Shown here in pieces: positions 1 to 7,817 of a stretch of 64,000 nt of DNA. The first letter of the stretch is position 1. The number at the start of each line of letters is the position of its first letter. The translations under genes and the position numbers were made by a program. The notes below the pieces were generated by a model. The model had not been told where the DNA came from and did not search any database. It saw nothing but the letters and a program-made list of their open reading frames with translations. Source of the stretch: Escherichia coli (GTDB taxonomy: Bacteria > Pseudomonadota > Gammaproteobacteria > Enterobacterales > Enterobacteriaceae); NCBI RefSeq assembly GCF_017348835.2, contig NZ_CP071375.1; one strand, written 5' to 3'.

Positions 1-148
1 AATTTACTTTTCTTTAACAGTTGATTCGTTAGTCGCCGATTACGACGGCATTAATGCGCAAATAAGTCGCTATACTTCGGATTTTTGCCATGCTATTTCT
101 TTACATCTCTAAAACAAAACATAACGAAACGCACTGCCGGACAGACAA

Positions 149-1336
149 ATGAACTTATCCCTACGACACTCTACCAGCGCCCTTCTTGCCTCGTCGTTGT
201 TATTAACCATCGGACGCGGCGCTACGCTGCCATTTATGACCATTTACTTGAGTCGCCAGTACAGCCTGAGTGTCGATCTAATCGGTTATGCGATGACAAT
301 TGCGCTCACTATTGGCGTCGTTTTTAGCCTTGGTTTTGGTATCCTGGCGGATAAGTTCGACAAGAAACGCTATATGTTACTGGCAATTACGGCCTTCGCC
401 AGCGGTTTTATTGCTATTCCCCTGGTGGACAGCGTCACGCTGGTGGTACTTTTTTTCGCACTCATCAACTGCGCCTATTCCGTTTTTGCCACAGTGTTGA
501 AAGCCTGGTTTGCCGACAATCTTTCATCCACCAGCAAAACGAAGATCTTCTCGATCAACTACACCATGCTCAATATTGGCTGGACCGTCGGCCCGCCACT
601 CGGCACGCTGTTGGTCATGCAGAGCATCAATCTGCCCTTTTGGCTGGCCGCTATCTGCTCTGCGTTTCCCATGTTTTTCATTCAAATTTGGGTAAAGCGC
701 AGCGAGAAAATCATCGCCACGGAAACAGGCAGTGTCTGGTCGCCGAAAGTTTTATTACAAGATAAAGCACTGTTGTGGTTTACCTGCTCTGGTTTTCTGG
801 CTTCCTTTGTTAGCGGCGCATTTGCATCATGCATTTCACAATATGTGATGGTGATTGCTGATGGGGATTTTGCCGAAAAGGTGGTCGCGGTTGTTCTTCC
901 GGTGAATGCTGCCATGGTGGTTACGTTGCAATATTCCGTGGGCCGCCGACTTAACCCGGCTAACATCCGCGCGCTGATGACAGCAGGCACCCTCTGTTTC
1001 GTCATCGGTCTGGTCGGTTTTATTTTTTCCGGCAACAGCCTGCTATTGTGGGGTATGTCAGCTGCGGTATTTACTGTCGGTGAAATCATTTATGCGCCGG
1101 GCGAGTATATGTTGATTGACCATATTGCGCCGCCAGGAATGAAAGCCAGCTATTTTTCCGCCCAGTCTTTAGGCTGGCTTGGTGCCGCGATTAACCCATT
1201 AGTGAGTGGCGTAGTGCTAACCAGCCTGCCGCCTTCCTCGCTGTTTATCATCTTAGCATTGGTGATCATTGCTGCGTGGGTGCTGATGTTAAAAGGTATT
1301 AACGCCAGACCCCAGAGGCAACCAGCACTCTGTTGA
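149..1336 (+). CDS. ydeE: MFS family transporter (12-TM-like hydrophobic profile)
   Basis: 395 aa ORF; MFS-like sequence; position upstream of mgtS/dgcZ as in K-12. Confidence 0.7.
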   Translation: MNLSLRHSTSALLASSLLLTIGRGATLPFMTIYLSRQYSLSVDLIGYAMTIALTIGVVFSLGFGILADKFDKKRYMLLAITAFASGFIAIPLVDSVTLVVLFFALINCAYSVFATVLKAWFADNLSSTSKTKIFSINYTMLNIGWTVGPPLGTLLVMQSINLPFWLAAICSAFPMFFIQIWVKRSEKIIATETGSVWSPKVLLQDKALLWFTCSGFLASFVSGAFASCISQYVMVIADGDFAEKVVAVVLPVNAAMVVTLQYSVGRRLNPANIRALMTAGTLCFVIGLVGFIFSGNSLLLWGMSAAVFTVGEIIYAPGEYMLIDHIAPPGMKASYFSAQSLGWLGAAINPLVSGVVLTSLPPSSLFIILALVIIAAWVLMLKGINARPQRQPALC

Positions 1337-1376
1337 CGTTCGTGCCGTTCCACTACTGGCACGGCTTCGCTAATCA

Positions 1377-1772
1377 TTATTCTGAGGCAAAGGCATAGCC
1401 TTCATCTTCCCAGCCGGTTATCCCGCCGAGCATGATTTTAACCGGCTTTCCGAGTCGAGCCAGTTTGAGTGCCGCACGGTCTGCACCGTTACAATGTGGC
1501 CCCGCGCAATACACCACAAATAGCGTATCGTCGGGCCATTCGGCCATTCTTTCTGCGGTCATTTGCTTATGGGGTAAATGGAGAGCGCCTGGGATATGCC
1601 GACGCGCGAAGTCCTCTTCACGTCCAACCACATGAAGTAAAACGAAATCATCGCCAATATAAGCCAGAGAGTCATGAACATCGGCGCAATCTGTTTCGAC
1701 ACTCAAGCGCGCGAGAAAATGCGCCTCAGCAACTTCTGGCTTCGCTGTGGTAAATTCAGTGACATAACGCAT
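1377..1772 (-). CDS. Rhodanese-domain sulfurtransferase-like protein
   Basis: 131 aa ORF with rhodanese-like motifs including an active-site Cys context (VVYCAGPHCNGA). Confidence 0.65.
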   Translation of the reverse strand: MRYVTEFTTAKPEVAEAHFLARLSVETDCADVHDSLAYIGDDFVLLHVVGREEDFARRHIPGALHLPHKQMTAERMAEWPDDTLFVVYCAGPHCNGADRAALKLARLGKPVKIMLGGITGWEDEGYAFASE

Positions 1773-1845
1773 ATTGCTTTGTCCTTTTGGTTTGTTGTGT
1801 TAACAATAATGTAACTAATCTACCTTTCACTGACCGCCTCTCGAT

Positions 1846-2838
1846 ATGCCAGAAATGAGCAAAATGATGACAACGTTACAACGTCCGCTGGTCATTGCAC
1901 TGGCATATGACGGGCTATGTACTTTTGAATTTGGCGTTGCCGTTGAAATATTCGGCCTGCCACGACCGGAACTGGGCGATAATTGGTATCGTTTTGCTGT
2001 TGCTGCGGTAGAACCTGGTGCGCTACAAGCCACCGGGGGGATCCACGTGGTTGCAGATGGTGGACTGGAGTTATTGCCCAACGCCGATATGATTATTATT
2101 CCTGGCTGGCGCGGAATAGATGCCAAAGTGCCGGAGATGCTATGCCAGTCATTGCGCGAGGCACACCAGCGCGGTACTCGCCTGGTATCAATATGCTCTG
2201 GCGTGTTTGTCCTTGCTGCTGCGGGCCTTCTTCATCAGCGAAAAGCAACCACCCACTGGCGCTACACTGAACAACTCCAGCACCGTTACCCTTCAATCAG
2301 CGTAAGTGACAATGTGTTATATCAGGATGAAGGACAAGTGATGACCTCCGCCGGAAGCGCCGCGGGGATCGATCTGTGTTTACATATCGTGCGCAAAGAT
2401 TTTGGTCATGAGATTGCTAATAATGTCGCCCGGCGACTGGTCATTCAGCCACATCGCCAGGGGGATCAACCACAAAATCTGACGCGCCCAATGGCCTCAC
2501 CGCGTGAAAGCCAGACGTTAGGTGCCTTATTCGACTTTTTGCAGCAGAATCTGGCACAAACACATACTGTGTCTTCCCTCGCCGAACGGGTAAATATGAG
2601 TCCGCGCACTTTTTTAAGACGTTTTGAGGCGTTAACTGGCATGACGCCCGCCCGCTGGCTGCTCAATGAGCGCTTAATACGAGTACAGGATTATCTGCAA
2701 AATTCGGTTTTTAACATCGAGAAAATTGCCGAGCTGACGGGTTTTGGCAATTCAGCGTTATTGCGTCATCACTTTCACCAACGTTTTTTATTATCTCCTT
2801 CGCAATATCGCAAAAACAGCCGTTCCCCATCACAATAA
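1846..2838 (+). CDS. GlxA-type transcriptional regulator (DJ-1/PfpI N-domain + AraC-type HTH C-domain)
   Basis: 330 aa ORF; N-terminal DJ-1/PfpI-like region (ICSGVFVLAAAGLL) and C-terminal AraC-type HTH. Confidence 0.65.
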   Translation: MPEMSKMMTTLQRPLVIALAYDGLCTFEFGVAVEIFGLPRPELGDNWYRFAVAAVEPGALQATGGIHVVADGGLELLPNADMIIIPGWRGIDAKVPEMLCQSLREAHQRGTRLVSICSGVFVLAAAGLLHQRKATTHWRYTEQLQHRYPSISVSDNVLYQDEGQVMTSAGSAAGIDLCLHIVRKDFGHEIANNVARRLVIQPHRQGDQPQNLTRPMASPRESQTLGALFDFLQQNLAQTHTVSSLAERVNMSPRTFLRRFEALTGMTPARWLLNERLIRVQDYLQNSVFNIEKIAELTGFGNSALLRHHFHQRFLLSPSQYRKNSRSPSQ

Positions 2839-2843
2839 TCGCC

Positions 2844-2879
2844 TGATTCAGCCTTTGTTTAGATAACCTCTGCTAATAT
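2844..2879 (+). promoter_or_regulatory. Candidate PhoP-box-like direct repeat (TGATTCA N4 TTGTTTA) plus -10 TAATAT upstream of mgtS
   Basis: Direct repeat 12 bp upstream of a TAATAT hexamer, about 65 bp before the mgtS ATG. Confidence 0.3.
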
Positions 2880-2945
2880 CTTTCTCATTGAGATGAAAAT
2901 TAAGGTAAGCGAGGAAACACACCACACCATAAACGGAGGCAAATA

Positions 2946-3041
2946 ATGCTGGGTAATATGAATGTTTTTATGGCCGTACTGGGAATAATTTTATTTTCTG
3001 GTTTTCTGGCCGCGTATTTCAGCCACAAATGGGATGACTAA
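2946..3041 (+). CDS. mgtS: Small membrane protein MgtS (31 aa)
   Basis: Translation MLGNMNVFMAVLGIILFSGFLAAYFSHKWDD; below the 60 aa cut-off of the ORF track. Confidence 0.85.
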   Translation: MLGNMNVFMAVLGIILFSGFLAAYFSHKWDD

Positions 3042-3068
3042 TGAACGGAGATAATCCCTCACCTAACC

Positions 3069-3108
3069 GGCCCCTTGTTACAGTTGTGTACAAGGGGCCT
3101 GATTTTTA
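3069..3108 (+). terminator. Rho-independent terminator after mgtS
   Basis: 10 bp perfect stem (ggccccttgt / acaaggggcc) followed by a T-run. Confidence 0.7.
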
Positions 3109-3116
3109 TGACGGCG

Positions 3117-3230
3117 AAAAAAAACCGCCAGTAAACCGGCGGTGAATGCTTGCATGGATAGATTTGTGTTTTGCTTTTACGCTAACAGGCATTTTCCTGC
3201 ACTGATAACGGATCGTTGACACAGTAGCAT
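3117..3230 (-). ncRNA. mgrR: Candidate MgrR-like PhoP-regulated sRNA (ends approximate)
   Basis: Minus-strand hairpin plus U7 terminator at 3117-3143 and PhoP-box-like repeat at 3250-3266; exact MgrR sequence not recalled. Confidence 0.4.
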
Positions 3231-3249
3231 CAGTTTTCTCAATGAATGT

Positions 3250-3266
3250 TAAACGGAGCTTAAACT
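3250..3266 (-). promoter_or_regulatory. PhoP-box-like direct repeat (AGTTTA N5 CGTTTA) on minus strand
   Basis: Two hexamers separated by 5 nt, overlapping the dgcZ stop codon. Confidence 0.4.
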
Positions 3267-4150
3267 CGGTTAATCACATTTTGTTCGTCAATAAACATGC
3301 AGCGATTTCTTCCGGTTTGCTTACCCTCATACATTGCCCGGTCTGCTCTTCCAATGACCACATCCAGAGGCTCTTCAGGAAATGCGCGACTCACACCTGC
3401 TGTCACGGTAATGTTGATATGCCCTTCAGAATGTGTGATGGCATGGTTATCGACTAACTGGCAAATTCTGACACCTGCACGACATGCTTCTTCATCATTA
3501 GCCGCTTTAACAATAATGATAAATTCTTCGCCCCCGTAGCGATAAACCGTTTCGTAATCACGCGTCCAACTGGCTAAGTAAGTTGCCAGGGTGCGTAATA
3601 CTACATCGCCGATTAAATGCCCGTAGGTATCATTAACCAATTTAAATCGGTCAATATCCAACAACATTAAATAAAGATTCAGAGGATCAGTGTTGCGTAA
3701 CTGATGATCAAAGGATTCATCAAGAACCCGACGCCCCGGCAATCCCGTCAAAACATCCATATTGCTACGGATCGTCAGCAAATAAATTTTGTAATCGGTT
3801 AATGCCGCAGTAAAAGAAAGCAACCCCTCCTGAAAGGAGTCGAAATGCGCGTCCTGCCAGTGATTTTCAACAATAGCCAGCATTAATTCCCGACCACAGT
3901 TATGCATATGTTGATGGGCAGAATCCATTAGCCGAACGTAAGGTAATTCATCGTTATCGAGTGGCCCCAGATGATCAATCCACCGACCAAACTGGCACAG
4001 TCCATAAGAATGGTTATCCGTTATTTCTGGCTTACTGGCATCTCTCGCGACCACGCTGTGAAACATACTCACCAGCCACTGGTAGTGGGCATCGATAGCC
4101 TTATTGAGATTTAACAAGATGGCATCAATTTCCGTTGTCTTCTTGATCAT
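3260..4150 (-). CDS. dgcZ: Diguanylate cyclase DgcZ (zinc-sensing domain + GGDEF)
   Basis: ORF with GGEEF motif; start taken at MIKKTTEID. Confidence 0.85.
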   Translation of the reverse strand: MIKKTTEIDAILLNLNKAIDAHYQWLVSMFHSVVARDASKPEITDNHSYGLCQFGRWIDHLGPLDNDELPYVRLMDSAHQHMHNCGRELMLAIVENHWQDAHFDSFQEGLLSFTAALTDYKIYLLTIRSNMDVLTGLPGRRVLDESFDHQLRNTDPLNLYLMLLDIDRFKLVNDTYGHLIGDVVLRTLATYLASWTRDYETVYRYGGEEFIIIVKAANDEEACRAGVRICQLVDNHAITHSEGHINITVTAGVSRAFPEEPLDVVIGRADRAMYEGKQTGRNRCMFIDEQNVINRV

Positions 4151-4404
4151 TGCCACTCCTTTTTCACAGTTCCTTGTGCGCGCTATTCTAACGAGAGAAA
4201 AGCAAAATTACGTCAATATTTTCATAGAAATCCGAAGTTATGAGTCATCTCTGAGATAACATTGTGATTTAAAACAAAATCAGCGGATAAAAAAGTGTTT
4301 AATTCTGTAAATTACCTCTGCATTATCGTAAATAAAAGGATGACAAATAGCATAACCCAATACCCTAATGGCCCAGTAGTTCAGGCCATCAGGCTAATTT
4401 ATTT

Positions 4405-4797
4405 TTATTTCTGCAAATGAGTGACCCGAACGACGGCCGGCGCGCTTTTCTTATCGAGACTGCCGCTAATGTTGATCATCTGGTCCGGCTGAACTTCTCG
4501 TCCATCAAAGACGGCCGCAGGAATCACGACATTAATTTCACCGCTCTTATCGCGAAAAACGTAACGGTCCTCTCCTTTGTGAGAAATCAAATTACCGCGT
4601 AGTGAAACCGAAGCGCCATCGTGCATGGTTTTTGCGAAATCAACGGTCATTTTTTTTGCATCATCGGTTCCGCGATAGCCATCTTCTATTGCATGAGGCG
4701 GCGGTGGCGCTGCATCCTGTTTTAAACCGCCCTGGTCATCTGCCAACGCATAAGGCATGACAAGAAAACTTGCTAATACAATGGCCTGAAATTTCAT
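4405..4797 (-). CDS. ydeI: Periplasmic OB-fold (YgiW/BOF family) protein
   Basis: 130 aa with signal peptide; position between dgcZ and ydeJ. Confidence 0.75.
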
Positions 4798-5072
4798 ACT
4801 GACTCCTTAATTGCGTTTGGTTTGACTTATTAAGTCTGGTTGCTATTTTTATAATTGCCAAATAAGAATACTGCCAATTGTTATAAGGCATTTAAAATCA
4901 GCCAACTAGCTGTCAAATATACAGAGAATTTAACTCACTAAAGTTAAGAAGATTGAAGAGTCTTAAACATATTTTCAGAATAATCGGATTTATAAATTTG
5001 AATATTATTATAATGGAAGAGCATACAGAAAAAGCAAATCACCTTTACATATAATAGCGTGGACAAAAAACA

Positions 5073-5591
5073 GTGAACATTAATAAAGATAAAATTGTAC
5101 AACTCGCAGATACCGACACTATTGAAAACCTGACATCCGCGTTGAGTCAAAGACTTATCGCGGATCAATTACGCTTAACTACCGCCGAATCATGCACCGG
5201 CGGTAAGTTGGCTAGCGCCCTGTGTGCAGCTGAAGATACACCCAAATTTTACGGTGCAGGCTTTGTTACTTTCACCGATCAGGCAAAGATGAAAATCCTC
5301 AGCATAAGCCAGCAATCTCTTGAACGATATTCTGCGGTGAGTGAGAAAGTGGCAGCAGAAATGGCAACCGGTGCCATAGAGCGTGCGGATGCTGATGTCA
5401 GTATTGCCATTACCGGCTACGGCGGACCGGAGGGCGGTGAAGATGGTACGCCAGCGGGCACCGTCTGGTTCGCGTGGCATATTAAAGGCCAGAACTACAC
5501 TGCGGTTATGCATTTTGCTGGCGACTGCGAAACGGTATTAGCTTTAGCGGTGAGGTTTTCCCTCGCCCAGCTGCTGCAATTACTGCTATAA
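5073..5591 (+). CDS. ydeJ: CinA C-terminal domain (PncC-like) protein
   Basis: 172 aa ORF. Confidence 0.75.
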   Translation: MNINKDKIVQLADTDTIENLTSALSQRLIADQLRLTTAESCTGGKLASALCAAEDTPKFYGAGFVTFTDQAKMKILSISQQSLERYSAVSEKVAAEMATGAIERADADVSIAITGYGGPEGGEDGTPAGTVWFAWHIKGQNYTAVMHFAGDCETVLALAVRFSLAQLLQLLL

Positions 5592-5635
5592 CCAGGCTGG
5601 CCTGGCGATATCTCCAGGACAGCCATTGGTGGTGT

Positions 5636-7681
5636 TTATACGTTCAAGCCACGATGTTGCAGCATCGGCATAATCTGAGGTGCCTTACCGCGCCATTGTC
5701 GATACAGGCGTTCCAGATCTTCGCTGTTACCTCTGGAAAGGATCGCCTCGCGAAAACGCAGCCCATTTTCACGCGTTAGTCCGCCCTGCTCAACAAACCA
5801 CTGATAACCATCATCGGCCAACATTTGCGTCCACAGATAAGCGTAATAACCTGCGGCATATCCGCCACCAAAAATATGGGCGAAATAACTGCTGCGATAG
5901 CGTGGCGGTATAGCAGGAAGATCCATATTTTCCGCCACCAGCGCCCGCAATTCGAAATCATCGACATCCTGCATTGCTTCGTTTTCTTCCAGGCAATGCC
6001 AGCGCATATCGAGAAGTGCGGCGCTAAGCAGTTCGCTCATCTCATACCCTTTGTTGAACAGGCTGGCATTACGCATTTTCTGTTGCAGTTCGTCAGGCAT
6101 TGCTGCCCCGCTCTGATAATGCCGGGCGTAGCGAGCGAATACCTGCGGATGCGTTGCCCAGTGTTCGTTGATTTGCGAAGGAAATTCGACAAAATCACGC
6201 GGCGTGTTGGTGCCGGAAAGCGTGGCATAACGCTGGCGGGCAAAAAGGCCGTGCAGCGTATGACCAAATTCATGGAATAAGGTTATGACATCATCCCAGA
6301 GTAACAACGTAGGCTCACCGGCAGCAGGTTTCTGATAATTGCAGACGTTATAAATTACCGGATGCGTTTCATTAAGCGTTGATTGCTCAACAAAATTGCC
6401 CATCCATGCACCGCCGCTTTTTGAATCACGGGCGAAGAAATCACCGTAAAATAACGCCAGCCCCACGCCATTATGATCAAAAATTTCCCACACCCGAACG
6501 TCAGGATGGTAGACAGGAATATCAAAACGTTCGACAAACTTAATACCGAAGAGCTGATTCGCGGTCCAGAATACACCTTCATTCAACACCGTGTTTAATT
6601 CAAAATATGGCTTGAGCTGCGCCTCATCAAGATCAAATTTCTCCCGCCGTACCTGTTCGGCATAAAATGCCCAGTCCCACGGCTGCGCGCTAAACCCGCC
6701 TTGCTGCTTATCGATAACCGCCTGTATGGAGGCTAATTCATCGCTCGCACGTTGACGCGCCGCTGGAACAATTTCCCGCATAAAGTTAAGTGCTGCTTCA
6801 GGTGTTTTTGCCATCTGATCGGCGATTTTCCATGCGGCATAATGAGGAAAACCAAGTAATGTCGCCTGTTGTGCACGGATCTCCACCAGACGTTGAATGA
6901 TAGCGCGGGTATCATTGGCATCATTTTTTTCCGCTCGCGTCCAGCCCGCAATAAACAGTTTTTCACGCGTCGCACGATCGCGCATTTCGGCAAGCGCCGG
7001 TTGTTGGGTGGTATTCAGCAGCGGAATCAGCCATTTGTTATCCAGACCTTTCTCGCGAGCCGCCTCTGCCGCCAGCGCAATCTCTTGCTCACTCATTCCT
7101 GCCAGCTGCGCGATATCGTTCACAACCAGACCGCCGGATTTATTTGCTGCCAGTAATCGCTGGTTAAACTGGCTGGTCAGGGTCGCAGCTTCTGTATTCA
7201 GTACTTTTAATTTTGCTTTATCAGCTTGAGCAAGTTTGGCTCCGGCAAGGACAAAACGTTGATGAATCACCTCCACCAGGCGGATGGATTCACTATCAAG
7301 CCCCAGGGATTCACGGCGCTGCCAGACAGCATCTACCCGCGCGAATAATTCACCGTTCAGATAGATATCATTAGCAAGTTCCGCCAGTTCAGCGGAAAAC
7401 TGTTCATCAAGACGCTGTAATTCATCATTGGTATGCGCCGCAGTCATCGCAAAAAAGACGCTGGTAACGCGGGTAAGTAATTCTCCGCTTTGTTCCAGTG
7501 CCAGAATAGTATTGTTGAAATCAGGCGTTTGCGGGTTAAGCGCGATGGCAGCAATTTCTGCCCGCTTTTGCTGCATTCCCTCATCGAATGCCGGGCGATA
7601 GTGATGATTGGCAATTTGATCAAAATGAGGAGCCAGATACGGCAATGTGCTTTGCACAAGGAAAGGATTCATTGTTGTCAT
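5636..7681 (-). CDS. dcp: Peptidyl-dipeptidase Dcp (M3 zinc metallopeptidase)
   Basis: HEFGH zinc motif; start taken at MTTMNPF (681 aa). Confidence 0.9.
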   Translation of the reverse strand: MTTMNPFLVQSTLPYLAPHFDQIANHHYRPAFDEGMQQKRAEIAAIALNPQTPDFNNTILALEQSGELLTRVTSVFFAMTAAHTNDELQRLDEQFSAELAELANDIYLNGELFARVDAVWQRRESLGLDSESIRLVEVIHQRFVLAGAKLAQADKAKLKVLNTEAATLTSQFNQRLLAANKSGGLVVNDIAQLAGMSEQEIALAAEAAREKGLDNKWLIPLLNTTQQPALAEMRDRATREKLFIAGWTRAEKNDANDTRAIIQRLVEIRAQQATLLGFPHYAAWKIADQMAKTPEAALNFMREIVPAARQRASDELASIQAVIDKQQGGFSAQPWDWAFYAEQVRREKFDLDEAQLKPYFELNTVLNEGVFWTANQLFGIKFVERFDIPVYHPDVRVWEIFDHNGVGLALFYGDFFARDSKSGGAWMGNFVEQSTLNETHPVIYNVCNYQKPAAGEPTLLLWDDVITLFHEFGHTLHGLFARQRYATLSGTNTPRDFVEFPSQINEHWATHPQVFARYARHYQSGAAMPDELQQKMRNASLFNKGYEMSELLSAALLDMRWHCLEENEAMQDVDDFELRALVAENMDLPAIPPRYRSSYFAHIFGGGYAAGYYAYLWTQMLADDGYQWFVEQGGLTRENGLRFREAILSRGNSEDLERLYRQWRGKAPQIMPMLQHRGLNV

Positions 7682-7817
7682 TTTCTTCTCCTGAACGCGA
7701 GGTGTTCCATAGCGTAGGCTTACTGATAACGGAGTGCAATCTTGCAAACCAGTATTACCCGCTCTTAAGCATCACGTGCTATGTTATTGACACACAAAAG
7801 CGTTGAGGAACAGTGAG

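What the first reader, a model, noticed from the sequence alone, without database searches (positions are those of the whole stretch)
1377..2838. Rhodanese-like gene plus GlxA-type regulator between ydeE and mgtS, not expected from the K-12 map
From memory, ydeE and dgcZ are neighbours in K-12 with only mgtS/mgrR between them. Here a convergent pair (rhodanese-domain protein, DJ-1/PfpI-AraC regulator) lies between ydeE and mgtS, suggesting a strain-variable islet.
Basis: partly seen in the sequence, partly recalled or inferred. Interest (0 to 1): 0.35.

Follow-up and report, generated by a model that had tools for sequence, protein, structure and literature searches.

The report
Known O157 islet: rhodanese plus FtrA
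The two extra genes between ydeE and mgtS are real and missing from K-12, but they are the long-catalogued "O-island 59" of E. coli O157:H7, and they look like an old enterobacterial regulator-plus-sulfurtransferase pair that most E. coli lost by one small deletion rather than a newly inserted island.

Summary
Observation confirmed with one correction. Window 1377-1772 (minus strand) encodes a 131-aa single-domain rhodanese. Window 1846-2838 (plus strand) encodes a DJ-1/PfpI + AraC regulator that passes NCBI's FtrA model.

K-12 MG1655 has only 126 bp between ydeE and mgtS. Of 5,426 complete E. coli genomes, 381 (7%) carry the pair and 5,016 carry the K-12 junction.

The segment is already known. 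ftrA is Z2164, listed in O-island 59 of EDL933 and reported as RpoS-dependent.

It is not an inserted island:
- The order rhodanese<->ftrA->mgtS recurs in E. whittamii, Escherichia sp. E1V33, Enterobacter, Kosakonia, Phytobacter and Cedecea.
- There are no mobility genes, flanking repeats or GC anomaly.
- K-12 keeps an 8-nt relic of the ftrA stop region.

E. coli carriers fall into two haplotypes about 84% identical. The window/O157 type is 94-98% identical to cryptic-clade Escherichia, which suggests import by recombination.

Both genes are under purifying selection. The pair stays adjacent in alphaproteobacteria, so FtrA probably controls the rhodanese gene. The signal and substrate are unknown. 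Interest is low.

The parts
149..1336 (+). ydeE (MFS dipeptide exporter), the left flank. Its last ~40 nt (1297-1336) belong to the islet haplotype, not the K-12 haplotype.
   Evidence: NCBIfam YdeE scores 791 bits. There are 13 mismatches to K-12 clustered at 1297-1330, against 3 between 1137 and 1258. The last 60 nt are 78% identical to K-12 but 98% to O157 and 95% to E. whittamii.
1341..1363 (.). Short inverted repeat in the 40-bp spacer between the convergent ydeE and rhodanese genes. It may be a bidirectional terminator, but it has no T-run.
   Evidence: Folding gives -12.6 and -14.4 kcal/mol on the two strands, z about -2. The terminator scan did not call it.
1377..1772 (-). Single-domain rhodanese-like protein, 131 aa. 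It has the invariant active-site loop YCAGPHCNGAD (Cys89, Cys94) and a third conserved Cys in ETDCADV.
   Evidence: Pfam PF00581 scores 44.2 bits. The closest solved structure is BH2092, 3o3w/3nhv, E=1e-17, with the same YCxGPxCNGA loop. The motif is invariant from E. coli to Ensifer. dN/dS is 0.05-0.12.
1773..1845 (.). Shared divergent control region. It contains a conserved box TTGTGTTAACAATAATGTAAC (1795-1815) about 20-40 nt upstream of the rhodanese ATG, and a conserved TATGCCAGAAA at the ftrA start (1845-1855).
   Evidence: Alignment of 14 enterobacterial intergenic regions (A1). No sigma-70 consensus promoter was found, which fits activator-dependent promoters. GC is 37%.
1846..2838 (+). 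ftrA (Z2164 in EDL933): an AraC-family regulator with an N-terminal DJ-1/PfpI (GATase-1-like) domain. The start codon is ambiguous (1846, 1855 or 1867).
   Evidence: NCBIfam FtrA equivalog scores 557 bits against a cut-off of 425, with ORF residues 6-327 aligned to profile positions 3-324 of 327. The N-domain is closest to isocyanide hydratase 3non, E about 1e-17, with the nucleophile-elbow Cys retained in SICSG. An in-frame ATG 21 nt upstream of the PGAP start is conserved in the enterobacterial orthologues aligned. Public annotations give 323, 327 and 330 aa.
2846..2945 (+). mgtS upstream region retained in all E. coli, and the right edge of the indel. There is no terminator between ftrA and mgtS.
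   Evidence: 5,416 of 5,426 genomes match this stretch. Those lacking the pair start matching exactly at window 2846. No terminator-like site was found at 2838-2945.
2946..3041 (+). mgtS (small membrane protein), the right flank.
   Evidence: NCBIfam small_MgtS scores 80.6 bits. The protein is identical to K-12 MgtS.
3035..3248 (-). MgrR sRNA region (Rfam STnc560).
   Evidence: Rfam RF01407 scores 281.9 bits. K-12 annotates mgrR at the equivalent position. A strong terminator lies at 3143-3124 on the minus strand.

Best explanation
The interval is the two-gene segment catalogued as O-island 59 of E. coli O157:H7. It consists of a divergently transcribed pair: ftrA and a single-domain rhodanese.

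Evolution:
- The pair is an old resident of this chromosomal position in Enterobacteriaceae, immediately upstream of mgtS and near ydeE.
- Most E. coli, including K-12, lack it because of one ~1.48-kb deletion whose junction is now found in about 92% of complete genomes.
- The minority that carry it fall into two deeply diverged haplotypes.
- One haplotype (IAI39-like strains) has flanking SNPs that match the deletion haplotype.
- The other (O157:H7, O55:H7, the window strain) is nearly identical to the allele of cryptic-clade Escherichia. It was most likely moved by homologous recombination through the conserved flanks.

Function (inferred, not shown):
- FtrA binds the 73-94 bp shared intergenic region, where a candidate operator TTGTGTTAACAnTAATnTAAC lies.
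- In response to a small molecule or thiol-reactive signal sensed by its DJ-1/PfpI domain (invariant Cys), it activates the rhodanese gene and probably itself.
- The rhodanese uses Cys89, with nearby Cys94, to carry a persulfide and transfer sulfane sulfur to a thiophilic acceptor.
- In O157:H7, ftrA expression depends on RpoS in stationary phase.
For: Shown:
- Both genes are intact and the K-12 interval is 126 bp.
- 381 of 5,426 genomes carry the pair, and 5,016 of 5,426 share the K-12 junction, including EcN and B-strain derivatives.
- Z2164 (AAG56228.1) sits in the same 90% cluster as the window FtrA. It is listed as 'O-Island 59, putative regulator' with a WT/rpoS ratio of 6 (PMC2907692).
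- The order rhodanese(-)/ftrA(+)/mgtS(+) is found in E. whittamii, Kosakonia (3 loci), Phytobacter, Cedecea, Enterobacter sp. Bisph1 and locus L007. The pair itself is also found in Escherichia sp. E1V33 (where the contig ends inside ftrA) and three further Enterobacter loci. ydeE is adjacent or within about 3 kb in most.
- The rhodanese protein is also named in E. ruysiae and Escherichia sp. E4385.
- There are no transposase or integrase genes, no flanking repeats, and GC is 50-52%, like the flanks.
- K-12's 26-nt filler keeps CACAATAA, the last ftrA codons plus stop, at the same 7-nt offset from ATTCAGCC.
- The window's rhodanese and ftrA are 94-98% identical at the nucleotide level to E. 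whittamii and E1V33, but 83-85% identical to the IAI39-type allele. Flanking dgcZ is 85% identical to E. whittamii and 98-99% to other E. coli.
- dS is 0.66-0.87 between the two E. coli alleles, against 0.059 for dgcZ in the same genome pair. dN/dS is 0.05-0.12.
- The left breakpoint of the tract differs between the window (~1297) and O157 (~1168).

Support for the functional link:
- A DJ-1_PfpI/AraC gene is adjacent to every rhodanese orthologue of at least 54% identity whose context could be read. These are Ensifer, Radicibacter, and three metagenomic lineages (66%, 56%, 54% identity). Four are divergent with 67-88 bp spacers and one is co-directional.
- The association is absent in four homologues of 53% identity or less; a fifth gave no usable context.
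- FtrA is 59% and the rhodanese 73% identical between E. coli and Ensifer, and both cysteine motifs are invariant.
- A conserved intergenic box is present.
Against: - No experiment links FtrA to the rhodanese promoter, and no ligand is known.
- Literature searches found no functional study of FtrA or of this rhodanese subfamily.
- The rhodanese gene (the EDL933 neighbour of Z2164) is not in the RpoS-dependent O-island table in which Z2164 appears. Co-regulation is therefore not evident under that one condition.
- The conserved enterobacterial box is not recognisable in the alphaproteobacterial intergenic regions.
- The direction of transfer between E. coli and the cryptic clades is not resolved.
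- Which allele is 'native' rests on a few diagnostic SNP patches. The right flank of K-12 matches the IAI39-type 45/45 and the window type 42/45. The ydeE end is ambiguous at 31/42 against 29/42.
- E. albertii, E. fergusonii, Salmonella and Citrobacter koseri were not examined at the DNA level.
Confidence: 0.7

Rival explanations
1. Classical island view: the pair was horizontally inserted into the O157:H7 lineage at an originally empty ydeE-mgtS site. On this view the K-12 arrangement is ancestral for E. coli.
For: - The pair is absent from 92% of E. coli.
- It has been catalogued as an O-island.
- The O157/window allele is closer to cryptic-clade Escherichia (94-98%) than its flanks are (85-91%). 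For this lineage the DNA probably did arrive from outside.
Against: - The same genes sit at the same place and in the same orientation in other Escherichia species and four other genera.
- A second, 84%-identical allele occupies the same site in IAI39-like E. coli.
- There are no mobility genes, no target-site repeats and no GC deviation.
- K-12 retains an ftrA stop-region relic.
- Any import was therefore allelic replacement or re-filling by homologous recombination, not insertion of a foreign element.
Confidence: 0.12
2. The rhodanese is not only a target but also the signalling partner of FtrA. It would load or remove a persulfide on the invariant DJ-1-type cysteine of FtrA. The pair would then form a sulfane-sulfur (or cyanide/isonitrile-type electrophile) sensing circuit rather than a simple regulator-enzyme pair.
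For: - Adjacency is strict across alpha- and gammaproteobacteria and both proteins are unusually conserved (73% and 59% identity between E. coli and Ensifer).
- Cysteines are invariant in both proteins.
- The FtrA N-domain is closest to a cysteine-dependent isocyanide hydratase.
- One homologous locus has a CN_hydrolase gene directly downstream.
Against: - The idea rests purely on inference. There are no interaction or modification data.
- Many GATR-type regulators keep the cysteine yet sense amine compounds non-covalently (family knowledge; abstract of 10.1101/2021.11.02.466972).
- The CN_hydrolase neighbour was seen only once.
Confidence: 0.12
3. FtrA's main targets lie elsewhere, for example read-through or modulation of the PhoP-dependent mgtS promoter immediately downstream, or a distant regulon. 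On this view the rhodanese is an unrelated neighbour.
For: - ftrA and mgtS are co-oriented, 107 bp apart, with no predicted terminator between them.
- ftrA-mgtS adjacency is conserved in Enterobacteriaceae.
- Z2164, but not its neighbour, appears in the RpoS table.
Against: - Outside Enterobacteriaceae mgtS is absent, yet the regulator-rhodanese adjacency persists in different contexts. The rhodanese is therefore the conserved partner.
- The divergent layout with a short shared region is the typical regulator-target arrangement.
Confidence: 0.1
4. The pair is a decaying, functionless remnant in E. coli on its way to loss.
For: - Most E. coli have lost it.
- An O157:H7 strain, ATCC 43889, has an independent larger deletion that removes ydeE, the rhodanese gene and two-thirds of ftrA.
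- No sigma-70 consensus promoter is present.
Against: - Both ORFs are intact and full length in the window and in both haplotypes.
- dN/dS is 0.05-0.12.
- Catalytic and DNA-binding motifs are invariant.
- 320 of 381 carriers are at least 99% identical.
- Z2164 transcript is detected and regulated.
Confidence: 0.05

Closest known systems
O-island 59 of E. coli O157:H7 EDL933 (Perna et al. 2001 numbering; gene Z2164)
   Same: It is the same DNA. O157:H7 genomes are 99.8% identical over 1377-2838. Z2164 (AAG56228.1) is in the same protein cluster as the window FtrA and is listed as O-Island 59 and absent from K-12.
   Different: - The window strain is not O157:H7. The best match is PapRG-06-5 at 100%.
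- Its imported tract is shorter on the ydeE side.
- The 'island' label implies gain, whereas the data here indicate ancestral presence and loss.
GATR regulators (GATase-1/DJ-1-PfpI domain AraC-family regulators: GbdR, CdhR, SouR, CahR of Pseudomonas) and AdpA of Streptomyces
   Same: The two-domain architecture is the same. The GbdR model is the second-best NCBIfam hit. The AdpA DNA-binding domain is a PDB hit at E=1e-16. Characterised GATRs are ligand-responsive activators of nearby catabolic genes (abstract of 10.1101/2021.11.02.466972).
   Different: - The GbdR score is far below its cut-off (130 against 480).
- The conserved neighbour here is a rhodanese, not an amine-catabolism operon.
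- No ligand is known.
BH2092 of Bacillus halodurans (PDB 3o3w, 3nhv), a structural-genomics single-domain rhodanese
   Same: It is 34% identical over 116 residues and shares the YCxGPxCNGA two-cysteine active-site loop.
   Different: - BH2092 lacks the conserved ETDCADV cysteine.
- It has no assigned function, so it does not inform on substrate.
GlpE and PspE, the characterised single-domain thiosulfate sulfurtransferases of E. coli K-12
   Same: Both are single rhodanese domains of about 100-130 aa with a catalytic cysteine (Pfam PF00581; PMC2593051 abstract).
   Different: - Neither appears among the sequence matches.
- From memory, the GlpE and PspE loops have a single Cys, whereas the loop here is CAGPHC with a second Cys.
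- The regulation and genomic context differ.
Isocyanide hydratase InhA/ICH (PDB 3non and others)
   Same: It is the best solved-structure match to the FtrA N-domain (E about 1e-17). The nucleophile-elbow Cys aligns, with SICSG against SVCTG/SVCSG.
   Different: ICH is a stand-alone enzyme. FtrA fuses the fold to an AraC DNA-binding domain and most likely uses it for sensing or dimerisation.

Membership tests
NCBIfam NF006902 transcriptional regulator FtrA (equivalog) | Whole-protein score at or above the curated cut-off (425 bits), with a full-length match | tested here: met
   The score is 557.3 bits. ORF residues 6-327 align to profile positions 3-324 of 327.
GATR / GlxA-type AraC regulators | N-terminal DJ-1/PfpI (class I glutamine-amidotransferase-like) domain | tested here: met
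   PF01965 scores 66.5 bits against a cut-off of 26.6, over residues 46-183.
GATR / GlxA-type AraC regulators | C-terminal AraC-type double helix-turn-helix | tested here: met
   PF12833 scores 69.9 bits and PF00165 scores 47.4 bits, over residues 232-323.
GATR / GlxA-type AraC regulators | Ligand-dependent activation of an adjacent target gene | not testable with these tools
   The only support is conserved adjacency and the divergent layout.
GbdR (NF052371 equivalog) | Score at or above 480 bits | tested here: not met
   The score is 129.9 bits.
Rhodanese homology domain (PF00581) | Score above the Pfam gathering threshold | tested here: met
   The score is 44.2 bits against a cut-off of 22.2.
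Catalytically active rhodanese (sulfurtransferase) | Cysteine at the active-site loop position | tested here: met
   Cys89 in VVYCAGPHCNGA aligns with the loop Cys of BH2092 and is invariant in 7 orthologues.
Catalytically active rhodanese (sulfurtransferase) | Thiosulfate:cyanide (or persulfide) sulfur-transfer activity | not testable with these tools
   This needs an enzyme assay.
Cdc25/Acr2-type rhodanese-fold phosphatase or arsenate reductase | CX5R active-site loop | tested here: not met
   The loop reads C-A-G-P-H-C-N-G, with no Arg at +6 (sequence).
NF041203 rhodanese_LYCAU (seleno)protein | Score at or above 115 bits | tested here: not met
   The score is 26 bits.
O-island (EDL933 segment absent from K-12 MG1655) | Present in O157:H7, absent at the homologous K-12 site | tested here: met
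   The literature assignment of Z2164 to O-island 59 is.
Mobile genomic island / insertion element | Integrase, transposase or other mobility gene | tested here: not met
   Only the two genes lie in the interval, and neither is a mobility gene.
Mobile genomic island / insertion element | Flanking direct repeats or terminal inverted repeats at the boundaries | tested here: not met
   No repeat pair brackets positions 1337 and 2845.
Mobile genomic island / insertion element | Atypical base composition | tested here: not met
   The rhodanese gene is 51.8% GC, ftrA is 50.5% and ydeE is 50.0%.
Mobile genomic island / insertion element | Empty site in related species | tested here: not met
   The site is occupied in E. 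whittamii, E1V33, Enterobacter, Kosakonia, Phytobacter and Cedecea. E. albertii, E. fergusonii and Salmonella were not examined.

The most novel reading that the evidence does not exclude
The FtrA-rhodanese pair may be an uncharacterised, widely conserved proteobacterial sensing and detoxification module for a thiol-reactive species such as sulfane sulfur, cyanide or an isonitrile-like electrophile. The rhodanese and the DJ-1-type cysteine of the regulator would communicate directly. Loss of the pair in about 92% of E. coli would then remove that response. It would also change what lies just upstream of the PhoP-controlled mgtS promoter, from a read-through-capable ftrA to the end of ydeE.
Probability: 0.15. 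Interest if true: 0.45.

Novelty: already known. Interest (0 to 1): 0.18.

Why it matters
The practical importance is small. The segment has been listed as an O157:H7-specific island since the EDL933 genome, and both genes carry standard RefSeq names.

What this analysis adds:
- The 'island' is really a deletion polymorphism of an ancestral enterobacterial module.
- E. coli carriers hold two deeply diverged haplotypes, one shared with cryptic-clade Escherichia.
- The regulator-rhodanese pairing is conserved far beyond the enterics.

The last point makes FtrA-rhodanese a reasonable, cheap target for a first functional study of an otherwise uncharacterised GATR regulator. It is also a caution against reading K-12-absent segments as acquisitions.

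Tried and rejected
- Literature searches for FtrA, GlxA+rhodanese and guessed locus tags (ECs2140-2142, Z2174-2176) found no functional study. ECs2142 appears only as a microarray negative-control spot and may not be this gene. The correct tag, Z2164, came from the protein-cluster look-up.
- Papers that mention 'transcriptional regulator FtrA' in Rhizobium tropici and Pseudomonas syringae give no mechanism.
- The sigma-70 promoter scan found nothing in 1300-3300.
- The repeat search found only chance-level short repeats and none at the boundaries.
- I looked for a shared operator between enterobacterial and alphaproteobacterial intergenic regions. None was recognisable by eye.
- I tried to decide which E. 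coli allele the deletion arose on from the ydeE 3' end. The result is ambiguous, at 31/42 against 29/42.
- The genome-contig scan depends on exact peptide patterns. The absence of E. albertii, E. fergusonii and Salmonella from its 14 loci is therefore not proof that they lack the pair.
- Five distant rhodanese homologues (41-53% identity) were checked for an adjacent regulator. Four had none and one context was too short to read, so the association is limited to the orthologous group.
- I did not run structure prediction. It would not identify the ligand or substrate.
Full report
**1. What is in the sequence**

The ORF list and reading of window 1-6000 give the following features:
- ydeE, 149-1336, plus strand.
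- A 131-aa ORF, 1377-1772, minus strand.
- A 330-aa ORF, 1846-2838, plus strand.
- mgtS, 2946-3041, plus strand.
- mgtT, 3041-3145.
- dgcZ, 3260-4156, minus strand.
- ydeI, ydeJ and dcp follow.

Profile searches confirm the identities:

| Gene | Model | Score (bits) | Cut-off (bits) |
|---|---|---|---|
| ydeE | NCBIfam YdeE | 791 | 582 |
| mgtS | NCBIfam MgtS | 80.6 | 35 |
| dgcZ | NCBIfam PRK09894 diguanylate cyclase | 520 | 256 |
| 131-aa ORF | Pfam Rhodanese | 44.2 | 22.2 |
| 330-aa ORF | Pfam DJ-1_PfpI | 66.5 | 26.6 |
| 330-aa ORF | Pfam HTH_18 | 69.9 | 33.6 |
| 330-aa ORF | NCBIfam FtrA equivalog | 557 | 425 |

Rfam places the MgrR/STnc560 sRNA at 3035-3248 on the minus strand.

The orientation is wrong. 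The rhodanese gene starts at 1772 and runs leftward, and ftrA starts at 1846 and runs rightward. The pair is divergent and shares a 73-94 bp control region. The rhodanese gene is convergent with ydeE.

**2. Comparison with K-12 and other E. coli**

In MG1655 the ydeE stop and the mgtS start are 126 bp apart with nothing annotated between them. The window has 1,609 bp there, so K-12 is net about 1,483 bp shorter.

Against 5,426 complete E. coli genomes:
- The islet-only query (1377-2838) matches 381 genomes. Of these, 320 are at least 99% identical, 3 are 95-99% and 58 are about 84%.
- A 322-nt query spanning the K-12 junction is covered contiguously in 5,016 genomes at 97.5-100% identity. These include EcN and B-strain derivatives.
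- Genomes without the pair begin to match the window at exactly the same base, 2846. This fits a single deletion allele.
- High-identity carriers are mostly O157:H7 and O55:H7, plus O169:H41 F6326-C1 and the baboon isolate PapRG-06-5, which is 100% identical to the window.
- The 84% class includes IAI39.

**3. It is already catalogued**

The exact FtrA protein sits in a 90% cluster that contains AAG56228.1, 'hypothetical protein Z2164 [EDL933]'. Dong and Schellhorn (PMC2907692, Table 4) list Z2164 as 'O-Island 59, putative regulator' and not present in K-12. Its stationary-phase expression is 6-fold higher in wild type than in an rpoS mutant. RefSeq annotates the pair as 'transcriptional regulator FtrA' and 'rhodanese-like domain-containing protein'. 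I found no functional study of either protein.

**4. Gain or loss?**

A scan of one genome per bacterial species with FtrA peptide patterns returned 14 loci. tblastn of the window's proteins against them gave the following:
- E. whittamii has ydeE, rhodanese(-), ftrA(+), mgtS, dgcZ in exactly the window's arrangement. Escherichia sp. E1V33 has the same ydeE, rhodanese(-), ftrA(+) order, but its contig ends inside ftrA.
- The rhodanese(-)/ftrA(+) pair is present in Kosakonia (3 loci), Phytobacter, Cedecea neteri, Enterobacter (4 loci) and locus L007. mgtS follows ftrA in eight of these ten loci; three Enterobacter loci showed no mgtS hit. ydeE lies within about 3 kb in six of the ten.
- Cluster members also name E. 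ruysiae and Escherichia sp. E4385.
- Named rhodanese homologues include Lelliottia, Citrobacter amalonaticus and farmeri, Yokenella, Buttiauxella and Franconibacter.

Other evidence against insertion:
- The interval has no mobility gene.
- No repeats bracket it.
- Its GC content is 50-52%, like ydeE at 50%.
- K-12's 26-nt filler between ydeE and the shared ATTCAGCC contains CACAATAA. These are the last two ftrA codons plus the stop, at the same 7-nt offset as in the window. An exact 8-mer at a fixed offset is expected by chance about once in 65,000.

Together these results indicate an ancestral module and a deletion in the lineage leading to most E. coli.

The locus is also prone to further change:
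- O157:H7 strain ATCC 43889 has an independent larger deletion from eamA into ftrA.
- Strain CFS3292 has an IS5-family insertion in the K-12-type spacer.

**5. Two haplotypes and a recombination footprint**

Nucleotide identity of window segments to other genomes:

| Window segment | E. whittamii | E1V33 | IAI39-type (L003) | K-12 |
|---|---|---|---|---|
| rhodanese / ftrA | 94-96% | 98% | 83-85% | absent |
| ydeE, first 850 nt | 91% | 91% | 95% | 95% |
| dgcZ | 85% | not held | 98% | 99% |

Synonymous divergence (dS) tells the same story:

| Gene | Window vs IAI39-type | Window vs E. whittamii |
|---|---|---|
| rhodanese | 0.66 | 0.26 |
| ftrA | 0.87 | 0.13 |
| dgcZ | 0.059 | 0.80 |
| ydeE | 0.28 | 0.42 |

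The O157/window allele is therefore shared with cryptic-clade Escherichia far more closely than its surroundings are. That implies transfer by homologous recombination, though the direction is not resolved.

The tract edges can be seen directly:
- In the window, mismatches to K-12 cluster at 1297-1330.
- In O157 the cryptic-clade-like sequence extends left to about 1168.
- On the right, three SNPs in TTTGTTTAGATAACC against TTCGTTTAGGTTACC mark the end, near 2871.
- In that right patch K-12 is identical to the IAI39-type flank (45/45) and differs from the window (42/45). This suggests the deletion arose on an IAI39-type background. The ydeE end is ambiguous on this point (31/42 against 29/42).

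**6. Are the genes functional?**

- Both ORFs are intact in all haplotypes, and dN/dS is 0.05-0.12.
- The rhodanese family is large, with 6,789 hits at E<=1e-5, and strongly conserved. Identity is 73% between E. coli and Ensifer adhaerens.
- The loop YCAGPHCNGAD (Cys89, Cys94) and the ETDCADV cysteine are invariant in the proteobacterial orthologues.
- The closest solved structure is the uncharacterised BH2092, E=1e-17, with the same two-cysteine loop.
- The loop lacks the Arg of CX5R phosphatase or arsenate-reductase types.
- FtrA is 59% identical to the Ensifer regulator, with invariant SICSGVFVLAAAGLL, ATTHWRY and TFEFG.
- The FtrA N-domain's best PDB match is isocyanide hydratase, and the nucleophile-elbow Cys aligns.

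**7. Is the regulator linked to the rhodanese gene?**

Contexts of rhodanese homologues were read in public assemblies:

| Homologue | Identity to window rhodanese | Adjacent DJ-1_PfpI/AraC gene |
|---|---|---|
| Ensifer | 73% | yes, divergent, 77-bp spacer |
| Radicibacter | 72% | yes, divergent, 72-bp spacer |
| Metagenomic P0153 | 66% | yes, divergent DJ-1_PfpI N-terminus at the contig edge |
| Metagenomic P0160 | 56% | yes, directly upstream and co-directional; a CN_hydrolase gene lies downstream |
| Metagenomic P0163 | 54% | yes, divergent, 67-bp spacer |
| P0172 | 53% | no |
| P0193 | 49% | context too short to tell |
| P0208 | 45% | no |
| P0197 | 44% | no |
| P0274 | 41% | no |

Together with the 13 enterobacterial loci, every readable orthologue context has the regulator next door, in otherwise unrelated neighbourhoods. 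That is good comparative evidence for a functional unit.

Within Enterobacteriaceae the intergenic region holds two conserved elements:
- A box TTGTGTTAACA(A/C)TAAT(G/C)TAAC, at window 1795-1815.
- A conserved TATGCCAGAAA at the ftrA start.

No sigma-70 consensus promoter is present, as expected for activator-dependent promoters.

The in-frame ATG at 1846 is conserved 21 nt upstream of the PGAP start (1867) in the enterobacterial orthologues aligned, and the NCBIfam profile aligns from residue 6 of the long form. Public annotations use 323, 327 or 330 aa. The start codon is unresolved.

**8. Mechanism, with status of each step**

- Shown: the domain architecture, conserved cysteines, divergent layout, conserved adjacency, purifying selection, and RpoS-dependent Z2164 expression in EDL933.
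- Inferred: FtrA binds the shared region and activates the rhodanese gene, and probably itself, in response to a ligand or thiol-reactive signal sensed by the DJ-1/PfpI domain. The rhodanese forms a Cys89 persulfide and passes sulfane sulfur to an acceptor.
- Unknown: the signal, the substrate, and any effect on mgtS. ftrA lies 107 bp upstream of mgtS, is co-oriented with it, and has no predicted terminator after it.

My confidence is about 0.9 in the evolutionary account and about 0.5 in the regulatory and enzymatic account.

**9. Verdict**

The feature is real and correctly located. It is variable among strains but already known as O-island 59, with routine annotation. Interest is low. The only open biology is the function of the conserved FtrA-rhodanese pair.

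Noticed in passing
window 415-674: ydeE is unusually diverse for an E. coli core gene. It is 95.4% identical between the window and K-12, with about 31 of the 55 mismatches packed into 415-674. This suggests a second, separate recombination patch inside ydeE.
   Followed up: partly
L021 (E. coli O157:H7 ATCC 43889, NZ_CP015853.1) 3431-3964: An independent larger deletion is present. eamA is followed directly by the 3' third of ftrA, annotated as a partial pseudogene. ydeE, the rhodanese gene and the ftrA 5' end are gone.
   Followed up: partly
L022 (E. coli CFS3292, NZ_CP026935.2) 1776-2932: An IS5-like ISKpn26 element is inserted in the K-12-type ydeE-mgtS spacer, just upstream of the mgtS promoter region.
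   Followed up: no
window 2853-2871: The presumptive PhoP half-site region upstream of mgtS differs by haplotype. It reads TGTTTAGATAACC in the window and O157, and CGTTTAGGTTACC in K-12 and the IAI39-type. Calling this a PhoP box is from memory and was not tested, and any effect on mgtS induction is unknown.
   Followed up: no
L007 (CACSKA010000003.1, labelled Chryseobacterium sp. 18061): This contig carries the enterobacterial rhodanese-ftrA-mgtS arrangement, with 67-87% protein identity to the window. It is probably a mislabelled or contaminated assembly.
   Followed up: no
L018 4613-5194; L025 2923-3411; L031 3303-3779; L024 3101-3796: Outside the enterics a GNAT acetyltransferase gene recurs just downstream of the rhodanese homologue, in three lineages. 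One locus instead has a CN_hydrolase (nitrilase-superfamily) gene there. These are possible hints to the pathway.
   Followed up: no
window 1846-1867: The ftrA start codon is annotated three ways in public records, giving 323, 327 and 330 aa. The longest form has an ATG conserved in frame across genera, but no clear Shine-Dalgarno sequence is visible.
   Followed up: partly
L003 (E. coli MMC-J-0091, NZ_CM128544.1) 1-1662 and 7681-7761: In this IAI39-type carrier the genes upstream of eamA are a GntR regulator and PTS components, rather than marRAB as in K-12 and O157. ydeJ is reduced to an 81-nt pseudogene fragment.
   Followed up: no
window 3260-4156: The mechanical ORF for dgcZ starts at a GTG two codons upstream of the K-12 annotated start, giving 298 aa against 296. 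This is trivial.
   Followed up: no
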